A DNA stretch of 64,000 bases from Octopus vulgaris (GCA_951406725.2 OX597825.1:15004001-15068000); one strand, 5' to 3'. Positions 249 to 54,999 are shown, counted from the stretch's first letter. The notes: a model not told the origin generated them from the sequence alone. Numbers and translations are program-made.

Positions 249-661
249 GTGTATGTTGAGAATAACCTGACCCAAGATTACTCATTACAATTGTATTAAA
301 CAAAGAGCTGAATTGTCAACACTGGCAGCCTCTAACGTAGTCAACTCCATTAGATTTTATTTTACCATAATTACACGTAAGGAAAAAATATGTAATTTGC
401 GGCCCATATTATTCATACATACCAGGACCTTTGTTCCACTAGCTTATTTTCACGAGATAATTTGGTGTGAAAAGAGAACAATCATATTTATTTGATATCG
501 AAAACATCAAAGTTTATCCGTTTTCCTCTCAAATTCACTTAAAAGTAGATCACTTACATCCGGTTTCAAAGTTACCGAAAATATCTATAACCATCCGGTG
601 TCTTCATTCATAATCTATGATCGGTTGATGCTGAAGTAATGATAAAAAAGTGATTCAATAT

Positions 662-896
662 ATATTTCTTTATTACCCACAAGGGGCTAATCACAGAAGG
701 GACAAACAGGGTCAGACAAAGAGATTAAGTCGATTACATCGATCCCAGTGCGAAACTGGTACTTTATTTATCGATACCGAAAGGATGAATGGCGAAGTCG
801 ACCTCGGCGGAATTTGAAATCAGAACGTAACGACAGACGAAATACTGCTAAGCATTTCATCCGGCGAGCTAACGTGTCTGCCACCTCGGCACCTTA
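662..896 (-). mobile_element. tRNA-derived SINE, family A
   Basis: Near-identical to copies at 5212-5704; minus-strand head aggtgccgaggtggcaga, B-box-like tttcaaattcc, core ccattcatcctttcggtatcgataaataaagtacc. Confidence 0.9.
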
Positions 897-1945
897 AAGC
901 GATTTAATATAGTATGTACCAAAAGATGTGGCTTTACTTTCAATTTGCTTCCATTACAGATCCTACAGAAAGGAAGAACGGGCAAAATAATATATAGAAT
1001 AAGTGACCGAAAAAGTTGGTATTGTTAGGGTATCGGAAAAAACTATGCAGAAGTTTCGAGAATTTGATCTACAGTAAGGAAAAGCAAATGATGGTTTGGA
1101 CCTGGTCGCCCCCCTCCCCCAAGGACAGATTTGAACAATTTCTTTCTGGTATTTATGAATTTGGAGACATTTTCAATGTTGTACGTTCAGTCATAAAATA
1201 TCTTTTTCGTCTTGTCACCAAAGCAAACAAATTTACTCAAACCGACAAATGCAAAACATGATATCAAATATTTAAGTACAATATAAAACTTGTCTGAAAC
1301 AAATTCTCGGCAAGATACAATATAACATAAAATGCAATTACGGAAATAAAAAATAAAAACTTTTTTATCAGGCAGGTACCGAGCTATCTGCAGACAGCAG
1401 ACAAACTAAAATATTTCATATTTCATTTAAAACAATATTTGTCAGTTTATTGTCATTTAAATACGAATATAAATGACGTTTCCACAGGTATTACAATTCT
1501 CAGTGTAATTCTTATTGTGCCATAGCAATCTGCCATTCCGCCATATACGCTACATATGAGACGCAAAAATAAACTTCCTGTAAAGAATAACTAACATCAG
1601 TAGATAAAGTGATACGAACAACAATCATCTGATCAAAAGTTTTCCGAACAAATTTTAGAGTCTATGCTATTAAGAGACTTTTATCTATAGATTTATGGTT
1701 TATCTGTCGAAACCGATAGTCGACGCACTATTTGGTTGAGAATATGAAATTACTTCGCCGTTATGTGTTAAATATTTATACCACAATATGGTACTTGGTG
1801 TTAGCTTTGGTGCTTTGTCGCTTATTTTATAAAAATATGTTGGTGTCATTGTATTTGTTTGATTTCCTTTACACGGTGTCATTGAAGTGTTGAATATAAA
1901 GTATGGAACATTGAGAGTACTCATACGGGCATATAAAATACGACG

Positions 1946-2008
1946 ATATATATATATATATATACATATATCTATATATATATACATGTATATATATATG
2001 TACATGTA

Positions 2009-2054
<46 letters not shown>

Positions 2055-2094
2055 ATATATATATATATACATGTATATATATATATACATATAT

Positions 2095-2154
<60 letters not shown>

Positions 2155-2176
2155 GTATATATATAATATATACATG

Positions 2177-2246
<70 letters not shown>

Positions 2247-2248
2247 AT
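1946..2248. repeat. Interrupted (TA)n microsatellite
   Basis: Seen directly; accounts for the YIYI ORFs at 1700-2326. Confidence 0.97.
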
Positions 2249-2924
2249 GAGGTGTATTTTTCTCTGTGATTGCCTCAGTGTATGTGTGTAGATAAAGCGA
2301 TAAACATATTTTAGATATAAATACATTTAACCACCACACACGCCTACATATATATACGTAGATAGGGGGGGGGTAACAAATAAATAAAAAAAAAGAGGTG
2401 AGATGTGGATGGAAACGAGGTAAGTGAGGTATAGGGGTTAGAGAGAAAATATGAATATACGAAAATTATTTCAGCTGGACAGACAATGCACGCGAGAGAG
2501 CATAGAGACACAGATGCAGACATGTATGAAAGTTGTCAGGGTAGCAAACAAGTTAATGTATGCAGAATTCTTAACTCATGAATGTTTTATTCGAACGATC
2601 AGCAATCCCATTCCAGTGACGTCTGATGTGTTGAACCACAATATGACCCAGACATTATATTGTAATATAATATTTAATAGTCATATTGTCAGCAAATTGT
2701 CTGTAATGTATTGTTAAAAAGTTGTATCGGAACCGACTAATCTCTGTTTCGATTCTTCTGTGTGGTAGCCTTGAAAATGGTCTTCTTTGTCTCGTCTGCT
2801 TGACTAATGCAGATGGAAACGGTGTGAATATTGACCACTGTCTGCGTGTGAATATACATATGTACATGCATACACACACATATATATAGATAGATATGTG
2901 TGCGTGCATACCTATATGCATAGC

Positions 2925-3184
2925 ACCGTGACCGACCAGGCTATCAGATGCTGTTACACATCGCTGGTCACACTGCGCTTCGGATTGTTTTTAGCCTTCA
3001 AAAGAGTGAGAGAAAGTTGTGGCGAAAGAGTACAGCAGGGATCACCACCACCTACTGCTAGAGCCCTATGGAGCTTTAGGTGTTTTCGCTCAATAAACAC
3101 TCACAACACCCTGTCTGGGAATCGAAACCACAATCCTACGACCGTAGGACGGCTGCCCTAACCATTGGGTCATTGCGCCTCCCC
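2925..3184 (-). mobile_element. tRNA-derived SINE, family B, internally deleted
   Basis: Matches 4025-4335 but lacks about 45 bp after tagccttcaa. Confidence 0.9.
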
Positions 3185-4024
3185 GTATATTTATATACAC
3201 ATATCTAAATATATATCACTGTTCAATGTTATCTCTACAAATTCTCAATAGGAATTAGAGCCAGCACTGAAAATTAGGACGTGTCCTCTATGAGTACATC
3301 TGTATGAACCATAATATAGATAGAGGTCTAGTCACTGAGTATGTATGCCTATACGAGGATTTGCTACTCCTTCTCAGCACCACATACAACCCATTAACCC
3401 GTCAATGAACACAGTATTCACTTCAAAAGCCTTTAGTAAACTTGGTATTATGGCTGATTAACGAAATATGGTGTTCCTACAAGCTATTGATAAAGTCATA
3501 TATGTATATGCATACAGTTATGTATATATATATATACATATGTGTGTTTGTGTGAGTGTGTACACGAGTGCAGGAATATATATATGCGTATGTATGTGTT
3601 TTTGTGAGTGTGTATTCGGGGTGCTCACACCTGCGTTTGTCTATTTGGCAAATGCTTATCAGCGGGTAGGCCAGAGACCAGATGGCATTCATCGAAAGAA
3701 TTTCAATTCAATATTTCTCCTTTACCGAATTCACATACACATATACCTGTTATATTGCCGCCGGAGCTGGTATGAACAAGTCATTATGGAAAATTGTACT
3801 TACCGACATTAATATTTATCAATTTGATTATGAAATAAATATAACATATAATCTGATTCAGTTAACCTTTTCTCCGTAGATTGCCGAGATACGTTTAAAA
3901 TTAAATCTAATGCAAAAAGGCCGTTTGCAGTTAATCAGAAAACTCACATTTACAAACAACGGTTATTTTACGAAGTAGTGCTTCAAATTATAAATAACAA
4001 TATATATTTCTAATACGTATATAT

Positions 4025-4972: not shown

Positions 4973-5704
4973 CTTTTCTACTGTAGGCACTAGGCCCGAA
5001 ATTTGGGGGAGGGGGAGAAGAGTCAATTAGATTGGCCTCAGTACGCAACTGGTACTTACTTTATCGACCCCGAAAGGATGAAAGGCATAGTCGACCTCGG
5101 CGGAATTTGAACTCAGAACGTAAAGACAGGTGAAATACAGCTAAGCATTTCGTCCGGCGTACTAACGTTTCTGCCAGCAGCCGCCTTCAAAACGTAACGG
5201 CAGACGAAATACATATTTCTTTACTACCCACAAGGGGCTAAACACAGAGAGGACAAACAAGGACAGACAAACGGATTGAGTCGATTACATCGACCCCAGT
5301 GCGTAACTGGTACTTAATTTATCGACCCCGAAAGGATGAAAGGCATAGTCGACTTCGGCGGAATTTGAACTGAGAACGTAACGGCAGACGAAATACGGCT
5401 ACGCATTTCGCCCGGCGTGCTAACGATTCTGCCTGCAGCCGCCTTCAATGCGTAACGGCAGACGAAATACATATTTCTTTACTACCCACAAGGGGCTAAA
5501 CACAGAGAGGACAAACAAGGACAGACAAACGGATTGAGTCGATTACATCGACCCCAGTGCGTAACTGGTACTTAATTTATCGACCCCGAAAGGATGAAAG
5601 GCATAGTCGACTTCGGCGGAATTTGAAATCAGAACGTAACGGCAGACGAAATACGGCTACGCATTTCGTCCGGCGTGCTAACGTTTCTGCCAGCTCGCCG
5701 CCTT
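4973..5704 (-). mobile_element. Head-to-tail trimer of family A SINE (period about 258 bp)
   Basis: Heads (gccttc/gcctta) end near 5188, 5446 and 5704; units 2 and 3 are nearly identical. Confidence 0.93.
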
Positions 5705-8490: not shown

Positions 8491-8872
8491 AATTCTACGA
8501 TACATGAAATATTTCAACAATTTCTTATACAACTCCTAATAATATTGAAATAAAAATAAATAATAGGACTTTTTTAGACATTGAATCGACATGAGGCCCC
8601 AATAGATTAAAGTAAGAATCAAATAGGTCCATAGGAAAAACATATAGGAACACTACGCAAATATATATATACATTTTATAAGGAAGGATTTCAACATATA
8701 TTCAGTAGAAGGCACACAAGATAGCAATGAAATTGAAATAATAATGTTAGTCCCTATCGTATATTAGTTAATAATAACAAAGGGTAAAATTAATTAATTA
8801 AGGAGTAATCAATAATTTCACCAAGTAGAATTGGGCATGAAAAAAGACCATTTCACGGTAAACTTAAGTAAC

Positions 8873-9142
8873 ACTTTATAATTAGGGTTCAGCAAAGATT
8901 TGCTTTACCACATACCGAAGTTTGGAAATAGCAATCAAAAACCTTAGCTATTTCTTCTACTTTAAAAAGGGACTCCCAGAAAAACCAAAATACCAAAATA
9001 CTTGAAAACATTGTTATCAAGTATTTTAGTTTTTCTGGGAGTCCCTTTTTAAAGTAAAAGAAATAGCTAAGATTTTTTGACTGCTATTTCTAAACTTCGG
9101 TATGTGGTAAAGCAAATATTTGCTGAACCCTAATTATAAAGT
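8873..9142. repeat. About 270-bp near-perfect palindrome inside a direct-repeat-flanked insertion
   Basis: actttataattagggttcagcaaa...cttgaaaaca t tgttatcaag...tttgctgaaccctaattataaagt; gtatattagttaata at 8759-8773 and 9141-9155. Confidence 0.95.
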
Positions 9143-9673
9143 ATATTAGTTAATAGATAATATATATTATTATTATATATTATTATTATATATTAATTAG
9201 ATAATAATATTAGTCCCTATACATAAAAGTCAACTGAAAAAAGTAACATTTCCCTCAAAGAAGGGCGCATTGGATTCTGCATTATTGGACAGACACGACC
9301 AATGTAGTAAGGTGGCTTCGGTCAGAAACATTTTTATCGTATGTCTTCTTCACCAACTCCCACTTCCGATAAAACAACGAATGATAATGATCCCCTTTTG
9401 ACAAGAACATAGATGATTGATTTACCGTACGAAATATCATTGACAATAACGTTTGCATCTCTCACAAATGCCTTCACCCGCTGTCTTTGTTTAATATTTT
9501 CTAACATATTTGACACACATTATGAGCAATGTTCCGTTCAGCGTGATTTCATCTATTAATATGTATAAAGGTCGACTTCGACAACTGCCTTGGAATTCGA
9601 TAAATTTACATATCAATTTCCTAAAGCAAACACCTATTGAGACTTCGTAAATTCCAGCAAAAGTAGAATTCAT

Positions 9674-24092: not shown

Positions 24093-24443
24093 TGTGATAT
24101 ATATATAAAGGAAATGAAGAAAATGCTGACAAAATAATTTAAGTAAGGGAGAGTCTATTTAATTAGGTGAAAGTTCTTTTTACCGGTTGCGCATTTGTTA
24201 TGCTTATCAAAAGATATTTTTTTAAGAGAGATAGAGTTCCTTTCTGATAGATTTTTTTTCTCTTATAAGAGATAAGAGAAAAAAATCTATCAGAAAGGAA
24301 CACTATCTCTCTTAAAAAATATCTTTTGATAAGCATAACAAATGCGCAACCGGTAAAAAGAACTTTCACCTAATTAAATGGACTCTCCCTTACTTAAATT
24401 ATTTTGTCAGCATTCTCTTCATTTCCTTTTTTTATATATCACA
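24093..24443. repeat. About 350-bp near-perfect palindrome
   Basis: Arms of about 170 bp differ at only a few positions; axis ctctta|taagag at 24265/24266. Confidence 0.97.
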
Positions 24444-24535
24444 ACTCGTGTTCTACATCTCCTTTTTTAAATATATATATATATATATATATATATTGAT
24501 ATAGATATATACACATATGTATATGTATGCATACA

Positions 24536-24596
<61 letters not shown>

Positions 24597-24604
24597 CTAT
24601 GTAT

Positions 24605-24674
<70 letters not shown>

Positions 24675-24678
<4 letters not shown>

Positions 24679-24920
24679 TTGGTGTTATGCAAAAGTGTCG
24701 AAAGTCGAAGGCGTTGCTTGTTCAGAAAACGAAAAAATAGTTTCACCATTCCATGACAAAACCGTTGTACTATACTTTGATAATTTTTCATATTTTGGCA
24801 TCTGAAACAGCTGGAGATACGATAGTTTGACCAAAAGAACCGGCTATTGCGAGCAAAATTAAATAATAATACAAAAACGCACTTGGCCAGGTTTGGACAT
24901 ACGACAGTTTTACGTAACAG

Positions 24921-24927
<7 letters not shown>
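24675..24927. mobile_element. MITE-like element with imperfect TIRs inserted in (TA)n
   Basis: atcgttggtgttatgcaaaagtgtcg versus reverse complement of the right end, atcgatgctgttacgtaaaactgtcg; pure TA runs on both sides. Confidence 0.7.
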
Positions 24928-24961
<34 letters not shown>

Positions 24962-25844
24962 ATCAATCTCCCTCTAAGTATTGATAGAGAGATAAATAGA
25001 TGCACGTATGTATGTATTTAGCTATGAATGGATGTATGTTATGTATGAATGTGCGTGTATGTATGTGCGTGTGTGTCTGTGTGATTTGCATCGAGTCAAT
25101 ATATAAGCACATACATTCTAAGAACTTGACGTACTGATTGCGAAAGGCACTAAAATAGGTATATGATATAGATTAAAAACCTGATAAAACATCCTTGAAG
25201 AGTAACCTAAGGGACTATCCATCATAGACAGCAGAAGAATTCTACATGACTTTCTGGTCATGTTTATGAACAAGAGTAAAAAGTTGAAGAAAACCTGGGA
25301 AGTGTAGGGACTTTTTACAGTAACAGTGCTCACAAAAATCAAATATTATAGAGCATCTGGTTTGCAAGGCTATTCACATTCATTCAGGATATTATTCCAT
25401 TCTCTTATCCTACACTTGGAATTGAGATGAAGTAAAAAAGAAAAAAAAGAAACGTTAAAAAGCTATGTCTGAAATATTCTGTGTTCCTGTAGCGATCGCA
25501 ATTTACTTTATTAATAGTTAATTTCCCCCCAACGAGCACCTGTGCAGAGAAGTAAGGTGCCTGTTTTTCGAAAAACCTTTTTTTAAGCATTTTCTCTCGT
25601 GTTTATCTTGCACATAAATATCCATATTTAATAAGTTGTGTAGTTCTAATTGAAGGATATATCCGGCATGTTTATTATTTCCTCTAAAAAAGAAAATGAG
25701 CGAAAACGATATTGCTACGTGTATATGTTTGTGCATACGTATGTACGCGAGAGGTTGTATAGATATATAAATATTTATGACCATATGTACATGCATAAAT
25801 GTATCCAAGTATGTATATTTATGTGTGTGTATGTATATATATAT

Positions 25845-25891
<47 letters not shown>

Positions 25892-27214
25892 TATACGTAT
25901 ATGTATATGTATAATATGTGATATATCGATTTTTGCCACGTTTAACTCACACCGTATGTATAAGAAGATATAAGCGACTTGTGTTTATTTATGATATCTT
26001 CGAGAACAGAAAAATAACAGAAGCCTAAATAGTTTTCATAGAATTTTGTCTTGGCATCAATGAAAGTGTTACCCCTTTAACTGTCCATAACTCTTCTTTC
26101 CATACATAAAGCTTTGCTAAATACAAGAATATTTACAATGAAACAAAATGAAACAAAAGACATTAGATTCTAAGATGTATGCATTTTCGGTGCAAATTGG
26201 ACAAGCTTCTTTATCAAGTTCTCCAAAAGAACGTATTTTATAAGCAGTATTTCTGAGGCGCGGAGCTGACATTCATAATCGATCTCTAGGTAAGTCCCAA
26301 GAGGCGATCCAAATTAGTCATCTTTTCCTCTGATTTCACCCTCCACCCAGTCAGGTATAATATAAATCGCTTTCCGTGTCTATATTTAGTGTATTTGTTA
26401 CAAGACAACGTTAATCAAAATAACGATAAAACCACATTTATATGTGTATTTGCATGTATGTGTGCTTATGTGTTTGTGTGCGTGTGTACAGAATTTGTTT
26501 ATTTTAGGACTTTTGTTATTCCACAATGTCACGTAACTATTATATGATATTATCAGATACCAAACTAATGAGAAGAAACAGAAAAGAATTCCGTGATTGC
26601 GGAATAATGAAGACGCGCATGGAAAACTTTGAAAAATCAATCTAAGAAACTAAAGTTTACTGTAACACCTCTGATATAACACGGAGACACAGTAAAGTAA
26701 TAGAAAATAAGGAAATATGATTTGGTGCATTAAAGGTCATATCTAAACTTGGCACTCACGCAAGAGATTATCCAGCAAATCGACTTCAAATTAAGCAATA
26801 AAAAATAGAAAAGCAGATGATTTAGTTGGAGAAGCATGTGTTACTTCCCAAGGGTTGGATTAAAATATCTGAAGAAGCATTCTGTTATTCACATCGTTCG
26901 TGTAACACGGGAAAGACTTGAGTGCTGGTATATAGAGTCAACAGAAAATTTCCGTTGCAGCATTAGATGTAATAAAGAGACGAGTTACAAACTTAATTCT
27001 TTTGTGTCAGGGGAGAATCATGTTGTGTTTGTCCATGTCCGTGTTTGTGTATGTGTAAAAATAAGAAATAAGTGGAAATTTTATTTACCGGTGAGTGTGT
27101 TACATTATAAGGCACAAATGGAAAATGACTCTCTCCAGACACAACAGAATATGCTTCAACACACGAACTCATATAAATAATCTTACAAACCAAATCGAAA
27201 AACGAAATACAAAC

Positions 27215-27400
27215 TTAATGTTTATGTATTAGTTTAGCAAGTTTCTTCGCATGTAAGTCGAATAAGTGGATCAGTTCCTCTATATCAACACTATGACATT
27301 CCACGTAGACCACGCTGATCATTTCCACGCATATCTCCATAGCAAAACCAACGTTGATGGATGGGTATAGAGATGATGAATATATGCTATTATGCAGGCC
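27215..27400 (-). pseudogene. Penelope-like reverse transcriptase fragment
   Basis: SSLYPSINVGFAMEICVEMIS..VDIEEL resembles the Penelope-type RT motif DVxSLYPSI and the helix after it. Confidence 0.55.
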
Positions 27401-28016
27401 TTCACCTTCACGTTGCAGGTGCAGATGCATTCATTAATTCTACATAGGGCGTCCTCCGTGCTGTCAACAGACATCCAGGAACATCCTGATTATGAGGCGA
27501 AGTATTATAGAGAGGAGTTACAAACCGAACTGGAACATGGTGGCTCGAGAGATTGTAAGTCTGTAAATCACGGCACAAAAATCAGACCGACTAAGGAGGC
27601 CACGCATATGACAGAATGTAAACCGAAATACCACAGAAAACCCGAATTGAATAGCAACACTGCTACCCGTCAACCTAACGCCTGAAGACAGAACAGTACA
27701 CAGAAGAGACAAGGGGACACACACAGATACAAACGGTACAATATACAAACCGTCACACATGCACACGAGACACAGAGACATATGCGAGACATATAGACAA
27801 GCACACACATACTCAGAGTCACAGATGCGGACGATTGTGCAGGCAATCATATGCACCATAGAAAGGTATCATGGAGTAAACACTGAGGCCAGAAAGAAGG
27901 GGAGGTAGTGTGAAGAAAATAGAATGGTTATTGTGGACATCAAATGATGCAACGTAAGAGCTTTTACGAAGCTACCGATAACTAGTAATTCAAAGGAGCT
28001 ATTAAATACGGTATTG

Positions 28017-28064
<48 letters not shown>

Positions 28065-28160
28065 ATAATGAGGGAGATAAGTTGAATATTAATTTAATTA
28101 ATATCAATTTAAAACCAGTAGCCTAACATACAACAATCTGTAAAATCAGAGAAAATTCTA

Positions 28161-28307
28161 ATACATGTGTATATTTAAAGGGCTAAAAAGCCACTAGGAG
28201 GTCAGCCGTATGCTAGAAGTAGATCACCTACGTAGGTGATCGTAGGTGATCTACTTCTAGCATACGGCTGACCACCTAGGTTTGTTTTTAGCCCTTTAAA
28301 TATACAC

Positions 28308-28313
<6 letters not shown>
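28161..28313. repeat. About 150-bp palindrome within an insert between two (TA)n runs
   Basis: atacatgtgtatatttaaagggctaaaaa..ggtcagccgtatgctagaagtagatcacctac|gtaggtgatc gtaggtgatctacttctagcatacggctgacc..tttttagccctttaaatatacacatgtat. Confidence 0.95.
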
Positions 28314-28369
<56 letters not shown>

Positions 28370-32479: not shown

Positions 32480-32830
<351 letters not shown>

Positions 32831-36394: not shown

Positions 36395-36600
36395 CGTTCT
36401 GGCAGAATCGTTAGCACGCCGGGCAGAATGCTTAGCAGCATTTCGTCCGTCTTTGCATTCTGAGCTCAAATTCCGTCGAGGTCTGCTTTGCCTTTTATCC
36501 GTTCGGGATCGATAAAACAAGTCCGAAGTTCAGCACTTGGGTCGATGTAATCGATTCACCCTCTCCCCGATCTTGCTGGCCTTGCGACAAAATTTGAAAT
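36395..36600 (+). mobile_element. Family A SINE
   Basis: ctggcagaatcgttagcacgccgggcagaatgcttagc..tctgagctcaaattccgtcgaggtc..gggtcgatgtaatcga. Confidence 0.85.
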
Positions 36601-38100: not shown

Positions 38101-39523
38101 ATGCTTCAGTAACCTACACCCAGAACAGCTTAGGAGGGCAATGTAGGATTTCTCGTTTCTCTGTGAATCGATTTTGCACACAATGGCAACGCCCTTGTTA
38201 TATTTTCATTATTCTGTGTAAGATCCTGTCTTTTTTTACCTGTGATTCTTCAGTTTTTGGGTGAATCACGCTAATAGCCTCTCTTCTCCCTAAGAACAAT
38301 GAGGAGTGGAAAAGGCGTTAACGACGAAGAAAGGTCTGTCATCACCAAGAAAAGTGCTAAAAGTACTTGCCTTCATGTCATTGCGGAAAAATTAGTTCGT
38401 CATGTGGACACGGTTAGAAATTCTTGAAGGATTCTTCGACGAGGAAGAACCGGTCCGATTAATGGACCTAGAAGTCTATGATAGCTAGCCATTTAAGAAT
38501 TATTGGGTGCAATTTATGTGGGAAAACTGGACAAACAAGCGAAGACATTTTCCCCGACTCCAGACTTCCTCATGCACCGAAAACCACCAGAAATCGTATC
38601 TTCGAGACCCTTGACTGACATAACGGTGGGCCAAGCGGTTGGGTCAATTTTGTAGATGGATGTCACCAACGTTTACGATGTCAACTACAGGGTAGAGGAG
38701 GTATGTTGTAGGCTGGTATCATTGGAGACTGACTTGTTGACCCAATCAGGGTGCCCGAAGGAGTTAAAGAGACCGCTGCCGCCTTCTGCAATCTCCTGAA
38801 TGAGGTATTGGTTCCCTGGCCAGATGACATACCGCTGTTACTTCTAAGGAATCTCGTATTCATGCATAACAACGCTACCTCTCACTCATGTAGGACCATC
38901 CAAACTTTACAACAGCTTTAAGACATACAAGGTGGAAGGCTGATGGTGTGGCCGCCAGCTCGCCGGACCTCAACCCAATCGAAAAATTTTGTTCCATAAC
39001 TAAACAAGCTGTATATGCCTACGGACGCCAATTTACGTCGAAAAATGATTTATTGGTGACCATCAAAGCTGCAGCAGAAGCAGGCCAACCTGCTACTATT
39101 ATGAAATTGACAGAGTCCATGACCAACAGGGACTATTTAAGTTATCAGATGAAATGGCGCACATGTGGCTAAATAATTCATTATGTCGATAAATGTTATA
39201 ACATTATTACGTGTTTCTGTTAAATATATACTTATTGTATGCTTAATATGTATCATTGACTTTCATTATCTGAAAATCAATACGTCTAGATATGGGTTAT
39301 TTTCATTCAAAAGCTATTAGCGCGATTCACCCATAAACTGAAGAATCTGAAATAAAAAAGAAAGGACGTTACACAGAATAATGAATGCATAACAACGGCG
39401 TTCACGTAGTGTGCAAGCCAGCTGGGAAAAGTTTTATCAACGTAGATTCTCAGAAAATCGAGGAATCCTAAATTTTGCTCCTAATCTATTAGCGGGATTC
39501 TGGGTGCGTTTGTTGAAGTACTA
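38101..39523 (+). mobile_element. Decayed Tc1-superfamily transposon of DD37E (TRT-type) with TIRs of about 190 bp
   Basis: Inverted repeats 38101-38280 and 39312-39523; peptides MRSGKGVNDEER, GGMLxAGIIGD..RVPEGVK and FMHNNATSH..WPASSPDLNPIE, with 37 residues between the second D position and E after restoring a 1-nt deletion. Confidence 0.85.
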
Positions 39524-53721: not shown

Positions 53722-53938
53722 TATTGGTTCCAAAATTTGGCACAAGGCTATACGTGTCAGGGGAGGAGCTAAGTCGATTAGATCGACAGCAGTGTTCTAC
53801 TGGTACTTATTTTATCGACTCCGAAAGGATGTAATGCAAAGTCAACCTCAGTGGAATTTGAACTCAGAACGTAGCGAGGGACAATATGCCGCTAAATATT
53901 TTAACCGGCGTTCTAACGATTCTGCAAGCTCGCCTCCT
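53722..53938 (-). mobile_element. Diverged family A SINE
   Basis: ctggtacttattttatcgactccgaaaggatg..ggaatttgaactcagaacgta..taacgattctgcaagctcgcctcct. Confidence 0.85.
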
Positions 53939-54999
53939 CAACAGATCAAAATATATTAGTCACAGGTTTGTTCCGAATTACCTATGATATTGCAAAAGCG
54001 TAGTGTGTGTTAGGTATGATGGTAGAACTGTGACGTAGCGTTTGGTTTGGTATCACGTGAAATAGCGTGAATGTATGTGTAAAATTCTGTAAAATAACAT
54101 ATAGGTAGAACTCCTGATGATTTATAGCCAAATGTCTAATCAAGAGAGGTATTCCATTAGTTTTTCAAAGTAACGCCAAACATTATCCATGTTGCATATG
54201 AATCTGTGGTGTGTTTGCTTTGTGGCTAGAGATTCAAAATAACATATTATTTACAGATTTCCTCTGTTCATGATGAAGACCTATGAGTAAAATGTAAAAA
54301 CTCAATTAAATATGACGACAGACTAAATAATGTATATTATTTATTGTACATTTTGTTATTGTTTGTTAATTCCTAGATGTAAGACATTGAAAGTTACGTC
54401 ATATCATAAGTTCGGGAAAGTTAAGAAACCATTCAAATCTCAGAGACAACATTACAAAACTAATAATCTAATTAAATTAGGTGTTACATATTGAAAAATA
54501 AACAGTAAAATAAACGGAGAGAAAAGAAAACAGAAGAAACTTTGAGAAATCAATTTCTAAAGTTTGCGATTTTATAATGTTTGGTTGCTTAAAACATGTT
54601 ATCTAACATGTCGAAGATACACGGAGGTGGAAAACGACAAACCCCGGTGGTATATTCACATACGTGTGCGTTTATGCAGTCTATATATAGCCGTACATTC
54701 TTCTCAGCATAATGATGCGTGTGTATTTGTATGACGTCGTTTAAATGTTAGGTTATATATATTGTGAAATTTATTCCCACGCTGGAAGAAATATAAGAAA
54801 ATTTTTAACTGCTCCAGAGTCTCAAAATGTGTAGCAGTTTTTAAATTTTGTAATAGCTTTATTGAAATGTCAAATGGGTTTCAACAATGTTTTGTTGACC
54901 TATGGTAAAAAATACTGTAAATGTCAGATTTAGGAGAGTTTAAATTTACAACTCCCGTTTCTGTAATCTAAAACATATACTGGCTGCGAATATGGAAAA

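What the first reader, a model, noticed from the sequence alone, without database searches (positions are those of the whole stretch)
24093..28313. Loop-less palindromes with a short duplication at the symmetry axis (hairpin-opening, P-nucleotide-like scar)
Seen: the palindromes at 24093-24443 and 28161-28313 are unrelated in sequence but share one architecture. The left arm folds with no loop (ctctta|taagag; gatcacctac|gtaggtgatc), and then 7 or 10 nt at the axis are repeated in tandem (ataagag ataagag at 24265-24278; gtaggtgatc gtaggtgatc at 28232-28251). The 8873-9142 palindrome has an 8-bp duplication just left of its axis. Known: off-centre opening of hairpin-sealed ends gives palindromic P-nucleotides in V(D)J joining and hAT excision. 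Inference: these elements form, or are repaired, through a hairpin or cruciform intermediate, or by fold-back priming during reverse transcription. This could be an undescribed class of TA-targeted foldback insertions.
Basis: partly seen in the sequence, partly recalled or inferred. Interest (0 to 1): 0.72.

Follow-up and report, generated by a model that had tools for sequence, protein, structure and literature searches.

The report
Head-to-head Penelope stubs with joint scars
These palindromes are back-to-back stubs of Penelope-type jumping genes, a published insertion shape, and the small duplications at their centres are rare joint scars, likely left when two DNA copies of one RNA were joined through short matching bases and not by opening a sealed hairpin.

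Summary
The palindromes and duplications are at the stated coordinates, and each belongs to a high-copy family. Family A (24093) is the 3' end of a Penelope-like retrotransposon with RT, zinc-finger linker and C-terminal GIY-YIG. Families B (28161) and C (8873) are non-coding ~550/590-nt monomers with hammerhead-type motifs, likely retrozymes. Copies sit in (TA)n. In 90 of 95 classifiable two-armed copies exactly one arm has a tail, and the arms are cut short at different 5' points (median difference ~40 nt). Joints favour microhomology (44 of 73 at >=2 nt; 16% by chance), and 15-16 of 21 longer insertions are locally templated. Loop-less axes (9 of 116) and axis duplications (12 of 116) are enriched, but together occur in only 3 of 116 (two are the window's own) and 0 of 50 centre-unbiased copies. 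Eight of nine loop-less axes lie on a native self-complementary 2-4-mer, and other copies share the window's A and B axes without the duplication. This fits annealing of two cDNA ends plus slippage, not P-nucleotides. The layout is published, and this scan has noted it before in this and other genomes. Ordinary elements; the junction statistics are a modest addition.

The parts
24093..24266 (-). Family A left arm: antisense 5'-truncated copy of the 3' pLTR end of a Neptune/Nematis-type Penelope-like element; tail-less outer end in TATATA
   Evidence: 98% to natural copy L091, whose upstream part encodes a GIY-YIG domain; RT and GIY-YIG in L113/L154
24265..24278 (.). A joint: loop-less axis on native AT (24265-24266), 3-nt insertion AAG (24267-24269), 7-nt tandem duplication bounded by native AG repeats
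   Evidence: parse; L007 has the same axis without the duplication
24270..24473 (+). Family A right arm (sense) including the ~34-nt tail 24440-24473, which is the pLTR/ORF-start junction sequence
   Evidence: tail follows the upstream pLTR and precedes the long ORF in L156
24471..24676 (.). (TA)n-rich target tract right of A
28018..28062 (.). (TA)n target tract left of B
28063..28232 (-). Family B left arm (antisense) with ~98-nt tail 28063-28160; 3' part of a ~550-nt hammerhead-motif monomer
28232..28251 (.). B joint: loop-less axis on native CG (28231-28232), 4-nt insertion TAGG (28233-28236), 10-nt duplication between native TGATC direct repeats
   Evidence: L045 has the same axis without the duplication; L171 lacks one 10-nt unit between the same repeats
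28237..28313 (+). Family B right arm (sense), tail-less, running into (TA)n
28300..28369 (.). (TA)n target tract right of B
8759..8773 (+). 15-bp target-site duplication, left copy (family C element)
8771..9011 (-). Family C left arm (antisense) with ~100-nt tail 8771-8872 and an 8-nt slippage duplication at 8984-8999; 3' part of a ~590-nt hammerhead-motif monomer
9010..9144 (+). Family C right arm (sense), tail-less
9141..9155 (+). 15-bp target-site duplication, right copy

Best explanation
Each palindrome is a head-to-head pair of 5'-truncated copies of a Penelope-like retroelement end (A, protein-coding family) or of a likely retrozyme monomer (B, C), probably made when both strands of a cut (TA)n target primed reverse transcription on one RNA, with the two cDNA ends then likely joined through short microhomologies. 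Shown: family identity, one tailed and one tail-less arm, unequal 5' ends, TA targets, 14-15-bp target duplications in four C copies, and microhomology and templated insertions at joints. Inferred: the GIY-YIG nicks both strands about 14 nt apart; one strand primes at the pLTR end and the other at the tail end (the two RT start sites of PMC11167929); both cDNAs come from one source; their free 3' ends anneal at chance complementary bases. When both ends stop at a native self-complementary 2-4-mer (AT in A, CG in B), the joint is a loop-less palindrome. If the extending strand copies a few bases, lets go and re-anneals at a native direct repeat (AG in A, TGATC in B), the 7- or 10-nt unit is written twice. 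The polymerase (host Pol-theta-like or the element's RT) is not identified.
For: RT PF00078 (E 9e-8) and GIY-YIG PF01541 (E 6e-7) in a copy ending in arm A. L156 has inverted copy + partial-tandem pLTR + ORF + pLTR. B forms a ~550-nt tandem array and C wraps at ~590 nt; type-I hammerhead core and stems in 16 of 22 B and 16 of 34 C copies. One tail/one no-tail in 90 of 95 classifiable copies; tail-less arm reaches further 5' in 50, tailed arm in 27, within 2 nt in 13. Long A copies such as L154, L254, L255, L260, L261 have one tailed and one tail-less end; in L154 the long tail-less arm holds no tail sequence, yet the inverted arm has one. Microhomology >=2 nt in 44 of 73 insertion-free joints vs 15.9% null; 33 of 57 with single-reference parsing. 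15 clear plus 1 borderline of 21 insertions >=8 nt are locally templated. 8 of 9 loop-less axes (6 of 7 distinct) lie on native palindromic bases vs 21-29% chance, p about 0.002 (L005 scored by hand). L007 and L045 share the window's axes without duplication. PAc cuts and extends both strands and starts RT at two sites whose interval is the tail (PMC11167929).
Against: Sister arms share subfamily variants (B 25 of 143 discordant vs 47% between copies; C 1 of 30 vs 42%; A uninformative). This rules out two unrelated RNAs in most copies but is equally expected from fold-back copying. Exactly or nearly symmetric joints exist (13 of 90; 3 of 42 unbiased), some with inserts between equal arms (L003, L010, L017, L026, L197), and one loop-less axis (L021) has no native microhomology; these suit a hairpin route. 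Later central deletions could make unequal arms from a fold-back product. Rfam gave no hammerhead match for B or C; no hammerhead was found in A. No autonomous partner was found for B or C. Samples are the best-scoring copies (40 scored of about 350-3500 candidates per family search), and most A and some B samples were selected with queries ending near the window's axis.
Confidence: 0.7

Rival explanations
1. Fold-back (self-priming): one cDNA, or an antisense template, folds on itself at the axis and copies itself to make the second arm; slippage adds the duplication. This is the published reading of palindromes at PLE inverted junctions.
For: PMC3846280 reads such palindromes as self-priming. 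Sister arms share variants. 13 of 90 joints are symmetric within 2 nt; L017 shows a stem-loop snap-back step. L161, whose direct arm includes the upstream pLTR and tail, is compatible.
Against: A copy cannot hold a tail its template lacks, yet the tail-less arm is the longer in 50 of 90 and L154's long arm has no tail. Median arm difference ~40 nt, up to 506. A zero-nt loop is hard to form within one strand, although PMC2943611 allows protein-stabilised snap-back between adjacent bases.
Confidence: 0.16
2. Hairpin opening: a sealed hairpin end, or a cruciform formed after insertion, is nicked off-centre, and the palindromic overhang is joined to the other arm like long P-nucleotides.
For: The A and B joints can be written as arm + reverse complement of its last 6 or 10 nt + second arm. 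L021 is a blunt perfect axis. Loop-less axes are enriched in the pooled sample (7 of 113 vs 1.1%).
Against: V(D)J P-nucleotides are 1-3 nt (PMC3528771 abstract); here 6, 10 and 21 nt. 8 of 9 axes lie on native self-complementary bases, which sealing does not need. 9 of 12 duplications occur without a loop-less axis, and 6 of 9 loop-less axes without a duplication. The families encode a GIY-YIG nuclease and RT, not a hairpin-forming transposase.
Confidence: 0.09
3. Assembly or chimeric-read artefact.
For: No listed short-read contig bridged the window's own A or B axis.
Against: Arms differ by 3-12%; one arm carries a tail absent from the other; C has a 15-bp target duplication; 116 such joints across many contigs of the genome. 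Short-read contigs of other studies hold head-to-head joints of family A, and unique-flank contigs of two studies run about 29 nt into the left arm (just under the tool's 31-nt bridging rule).
Confidence: 0.03
4. MITE or foldback DNA transposons with long terminal inverted repeats and TA duplications.
For: Palindromic, high-copy, TA-flanked.
Against: The centre differs in every copy, the ends are asymmetric (tail), many copies have one arm only (17 of 38 B, 9 of 38 C), and arm A continues into RT/GIY-YIG coding sequence.
Confidence: 0.02

Closest known systems
Endonuclease-bearing Penelope-like elements with inverted 5'-truncated pLTR, one-sided tail and TSD (Adineta vaga Pen2a and others, PMC3846280; Craig et al. 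2021, PMC8557442)
   Same: Head-to-head inverted copy, tail at one end only, partial tandems, microsatellite (TA)n bias, palindromes at the inverted junction, microhomology at 5' junctions
   Different: Tails of B and C are ~100 nt, not 30-40; TSD 14-15 bp in family C against 8-10 bp in A. vaga; the junction data here favour two joined cDNAs over the self-priming reading given in PMC3846280
Neptune (or Nematis) clade PLEs
   Same: RT with DKG motif, Cx4Cx2C linker, C-terminal GIY-YIG, (TA)n targets (family A)
   Different: No canonical hammerhead found in A's pLTR; clade not placed by a tree
Poseidon of Anolis (PAc), PMC11167929
   Same: Two RT start sites separated by the tail at the pLTR-ORF junction; both target strands cut and extended; AT-rich targets
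   Different: Shown in vitro for another clade; the joining of the two cDNAs was not addressed in the parts read
Animal non-LTR retrozymes (bioRxiv 10.64898/2026.07.22.740005)
   Same: B and C: non-coding tandem monomers with a type-I hammerhead motif, PLE-like insertion marks
   Different: Mostly dispersed head-to-head stubs; cleavage, circles and the autonomous partner not shown
SD-MMEJ / polymerase-theta templated insertions (PMC2943611)
   Same: Microhomology joints and insertions that form direct or inverted repeats bounded by native short repeats
   Different: Here the two ends are inferred nascent cDNAs of the same sequence; the polymerase is unknown
P-nucleotides of V(D)J joining (PMC3528771); hAT footprints (recalled, no call)
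   Same: Loop-less palindromic addition at an end
   Different: Much longer (6-21 nt), tied to native microhomology, no hairpin-forming transposase in these families

Membership tests
EN+ Penelope-like element (family A) | RT domain of PLE type | tested here: met
   PF00078 E 8.7e-8; DKG and YLDD motifs
EN+ Penelope-like element (family A) | GIY-YIG endonuclease in the same reading direction | tested here: met
   PF01541 E 6.2e-7, C-terminal
EN+ Penelope-like element (family A) | pLTRs in partial tandem with adjacent inverted 5'-truncated copy | tested here: met
   L156, L161
EN+ Penelope-like element (family A) | 30-40-bp tail at one end | tested here: met
   ~34 nt; one tail/one no-tail in 18 of 20 classifiable short copies
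EN+ Penelope-like element (family A) | Hammerhead motif in the pLTR (typical of canonical PLEs) | tested here: not met
   motif scan of five A loci and Rfam on L156 1600-3100 found none; variant cores not excluded
Neptune clade (family A) | CX2-5CxxC linker between RT and C-terminal EN | tested here: met
   CNRPNCGIC; Nematis shares the linker (PMC8557442)
Neptune clade (family A) | RT phylogeny groups with Neptune | not tested
   no reference set or tree
Non-LTR retrozyme (families B, C) | Tandem non-coding monomers | tested here: met
   B ~550-nt array of at least 16 units; C wraps at ~590 nt; no attached ORF >=140 aa seen in the loci
Non-LTR retrozyme (families B, C) | Type-I hammerhead in each unit | tested here: inconclusive
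   core CUGANGA/GAAA/UH with stems in 16 of 22 B and 16 of 34 C copies; no Rfam match
Non-LTR retrozyme (families B, C) | Self-cleavage and circular RNA | not testable with these tools
   needs RNA assays
MITE / foldback DNA transposon | Fixed symmetric termini and conserved internal structure | tested here: not met
   asymmetric ends and copy-specific centres
P-nucleotide (hairpin-opening) scar | 1-3-nt palindromic addition at a sequence-independent end | tested here: not met
   6-21 nt; 8 of 9 axes on native palindromic bases

The most novel reading that the evidence does not exclude
Penelope insertions finish by end-joining two cDNAs copied from one RNA, and the joint scars (microhomology, templated duplications up to 60 nt, loop-less axes on native mini-palindromes) are a genome-wide fossil record of that step, replacing the published self-priming explanation and pointing to polymerase-theta-like activity, by the host or the element's RT, as the last step of PLE transposition.
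Probability: 0.5. Interest if true: 0.45.

Novelty: new member of a known kind. Interest (0 to 1): 0.24.

Why it matters
The elements are ordinary Penelope-type insertions. The useful part is mechanistic: how PLEs form their inverted ends is still open (PMC8557442 and PMC11167929 say so), and the joint statistics give a testable model, two primed cDNAs joined by microhomology with templated slippage. More than half of tail-bearing B and C copies are palindromes (50 of 76), so these families may feed the high double-stranded-RNA potential reported for octopus (PMC5625713, passages); that link was not tested.

Tried and rejected
Rfam scans gave only microsatellite-driven miRNA-family matches and no hammerhead. 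A short-arm search for an unbiased family A sample returned only 3 candidates, so unbiased numbers rest on B and C. No RNA holder was listed. Laying contigs on A and B did not bridge the window's own axes; the listings are cut and a hole proves nothing. Four of 120 joints were dropped before counting (L013 nested piece, L154 reference-end artefact, L058 mis-parse, L225 40-nt arm); 9 long A joints were left out of the tail tally. The TSD scan found 14 of 90 against 5% null, but only 4 are clean non-microsatellite cases. The TA-flank count (90 of 90 at one end, 75 of 90 at both, 15% background) is inflated because the windows include TA-rich element ends. The duplication scan is ungapped and missed at least L025 (42-nt unit with an indel). 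Shuffle tests are weak for insertions under 8 nt. Families A, B and C show no DNA similarity to one another. A GIY-YIG ORF beside a B copy (L119, E 0.0016) is separated from it by a microsatellite and was not taken as B's partner. Most subscription papers and bioRxiv supplements are not covered, so absence from print is not shown.

Full report
Observation. Each arm has hundreds to thousands of relatives in the own genome G000, a 2.8-Gb assembly (first-look candidates 991, 832, 1614; 40 scored per search). The scan's earlier notes call this genome an octopus; I did not test that.

Anatomy across copies. With the copies oriented alike, the centre differs from copy to copy, many copies have one arm only, and one end often carries extra sequence (a tail). 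In the window the tails are 24440-24473 (A), about 28063-28160 (B) and about 8771-8872 (C). The ends lie in (TA)n. C has a 15-bp target-site duplication (8759-8773, 9141-9155), and three other C copies have clean 14-bp ones.

Identity. Walking upstream from arm A reaches a GIY-YIG frame and then an RT. Pfam gives PF00078 at E 8.7e-8 and PF01541 at E 6.2e-7, with a Cx4Cx2C linker between them. L156 shows an inverted copy with tail, a partial-tandem pLTR, the ORF and a tail-less 3' pLTR. That is the structure described in PMC8557442 (passages and section 6 read) and PMC3846280 (passages). B occurs as a ~550-nt tandem array and C wraps at ~590 nt. A type-I hammerhead core with stems is present in 16 of 22 B and 16 of 34 C copies covering the region, but Rfam did not match it. 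B and C therefore look like non-LTR retrozymes, proposed to be non-autonomous PLE derivatives (bioRxiv 10.64898/2026.07.22.740005, part 1 of 5 read). No hammerhead was found in A. A, B and C share no DNA similarity.

Two ends, two starts. 120 head-to-head joints were found in 264 loci; 4 were dropped, leaving 116. Of 107 tallied, 95 could be classified at both ends: 90 have one tailed and one tail-less arm, 4 have two tails and 1 has none. The tail-less arm reaches further 5' in 50, the tailed arm in 27, and they end within 2 nt in 13. In samples anchored on the tail, and so blind to the centre, 21 of 38 B and 29 of 38 C copies are two-armed; the median arm difference is about 40 nt, and 3 of 42 are within 2 nt. 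A fold-back copy cannot carry a tail that its template lacks, so simple self-priming fails for 50 of 90 copies and for long copies such as L154, unless later deletions trimmed the centre. PMC11167929 (parts 1-2 of 4 read) shows a PLE cutting and extending both target strands from two RT start sites whose interval is the tail, which predicts this pattern. Sister arms share subfamily variants (B 25 of 143 discordant vs 47%; C 1 of 30 vs 42%). Both arms thus usually come from one source; this result does not separate one RNA copied twice from fold-back.

The axis. Joint classes among 116: microhomology >=2 nt 44, 1 nt 13, blunt 16, insertion 1-4 nt 17, insertion >=5 nt 26. Microhomology >=2 nt in 44 of 73 insertion-free joints exceeds the 15.9% null (p 1e-17), and a single-reference parse gives 33 of 57. 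Of 21 insertions >=8 nt, 15 are clearly and 1 is marginally templated from within 70 nt. Loop-less axes occur in 9 of 116 and tandem duplications in 12 of 116, against 1.1% and 1.8% of 3000 simulated joints; both occur together in 3 of 116 against 0 of 3000, and two of those three are the window's own. Without the window's copies the counts are 7, 9 and 1 of 113; in the unbiased 50 they are 2 (p 0.10), 4 (p 0.013) and 0.

Mechanism of the scar. Eight of nine loop-less axes (six of seven distinct positions) lie on bases that are self-complementary in the element itself (AT, CG, GATC, AATT, TA), against 21-29% by chance (L005 scored by hand because of an internal deletion). Annealing of two identical strands needs such bases; sealing a hairpin does not. 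L007 and L045 have the same axes as the window's A and B but no duplication, so axis and duplication are separable. B's 10-nt unit lies between native TGATC repeats, and another B copy (L171) lacks one such unit; A's 7-nt unit lies between native AG repeats. Insertions bounded by native repeats are the signature of synthesis-dependent microhomology end-joining (PMC2943611, passages); short fold-back insertions at breaks are also reported in yeast (PMC11724301, abstract only). V(D)J P-nucleotides are 1-3 nt (PMC3528771, abstract only), against 6, 10 and 21 nt here. Against my reading: L021 is a perfect blunt axis, several joints have equal arms with inserts, and L017 includes a stem-loop snap-back step, so hairpin steps probably occur in a minority.

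Reality check. Contigs from four studies show arm depth hundreds to thousands of times the unique flank and head-to-head joints of other copies; unique-flank contigs of two studies run about 29 nt into A's left arm. No listed contig bridged the window's own A or B axis, so those exact joints are confirmed only by the assembly.

Novelty. The layout, the tail, TSDs and even palindromes at the inverted junction are published (PMC3846280, which reads them as self-priming). The scan has reported head-to-head Penelope stubs many times in this and other genomes, including the two-primed-ends reading; those notes are unchecked and are not used as support. My searches found no census of microhomology and templated duplications at PLE inverted joints, within a library that lacks most subscription papers. 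Verdict: real, new members of a known kind; interest 0.24.

Noticed in passing
window 38174-39416: Decayed Tc1/mariner-like element: ~105-bp inverted repeats at 83%, remnant frame with SPDLNPIE (family label recalled from the motif); 410 candidates in the genome
   Followed up: partly
window 32622-32696: Old ~74%-identical fragment of the family C tail inside a long (TA)n tract
   Followed up: no
window 5020-5704, also 657-896, 36399-36568, 53760-53941: 258-bp SINE-like repeat, in a 2.7-copy tandem at 5020-5704 and dispersed elsewhere
   Followed up: no
L156 (G000:C5:76177000-76185500): Near full-length family A element of a subfamily carrying ~180 extra nt in the pLTR; the window's subfamily lacks it, apparently by deletion between short repeats
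   Followed up: partly
L061 8759-9155 (window), L069, L076, L080: Family C target duplications are consistently 14-15 bp, longer than the 8-10 bp in A. vaga Penelopes
   Followed up: partly
L066, L155 3439-3629, L156 7802-8141, L160 1128-1630, L158 3986-4125: Further palindromes of other families in the flanks of fetched loci, so the genome is dense in such stubs
   Followed up: no
L072 ~2749, L085 ~2013, L158 ~1934: Additional hammerhead-like motifs of other repeat families in flanks
   Followed up: no
L079, L093: 83- and 103-nt inserts between family C arms that match no nearby sequence well; the L093 insert is itself a palindrome
   Followed up: no
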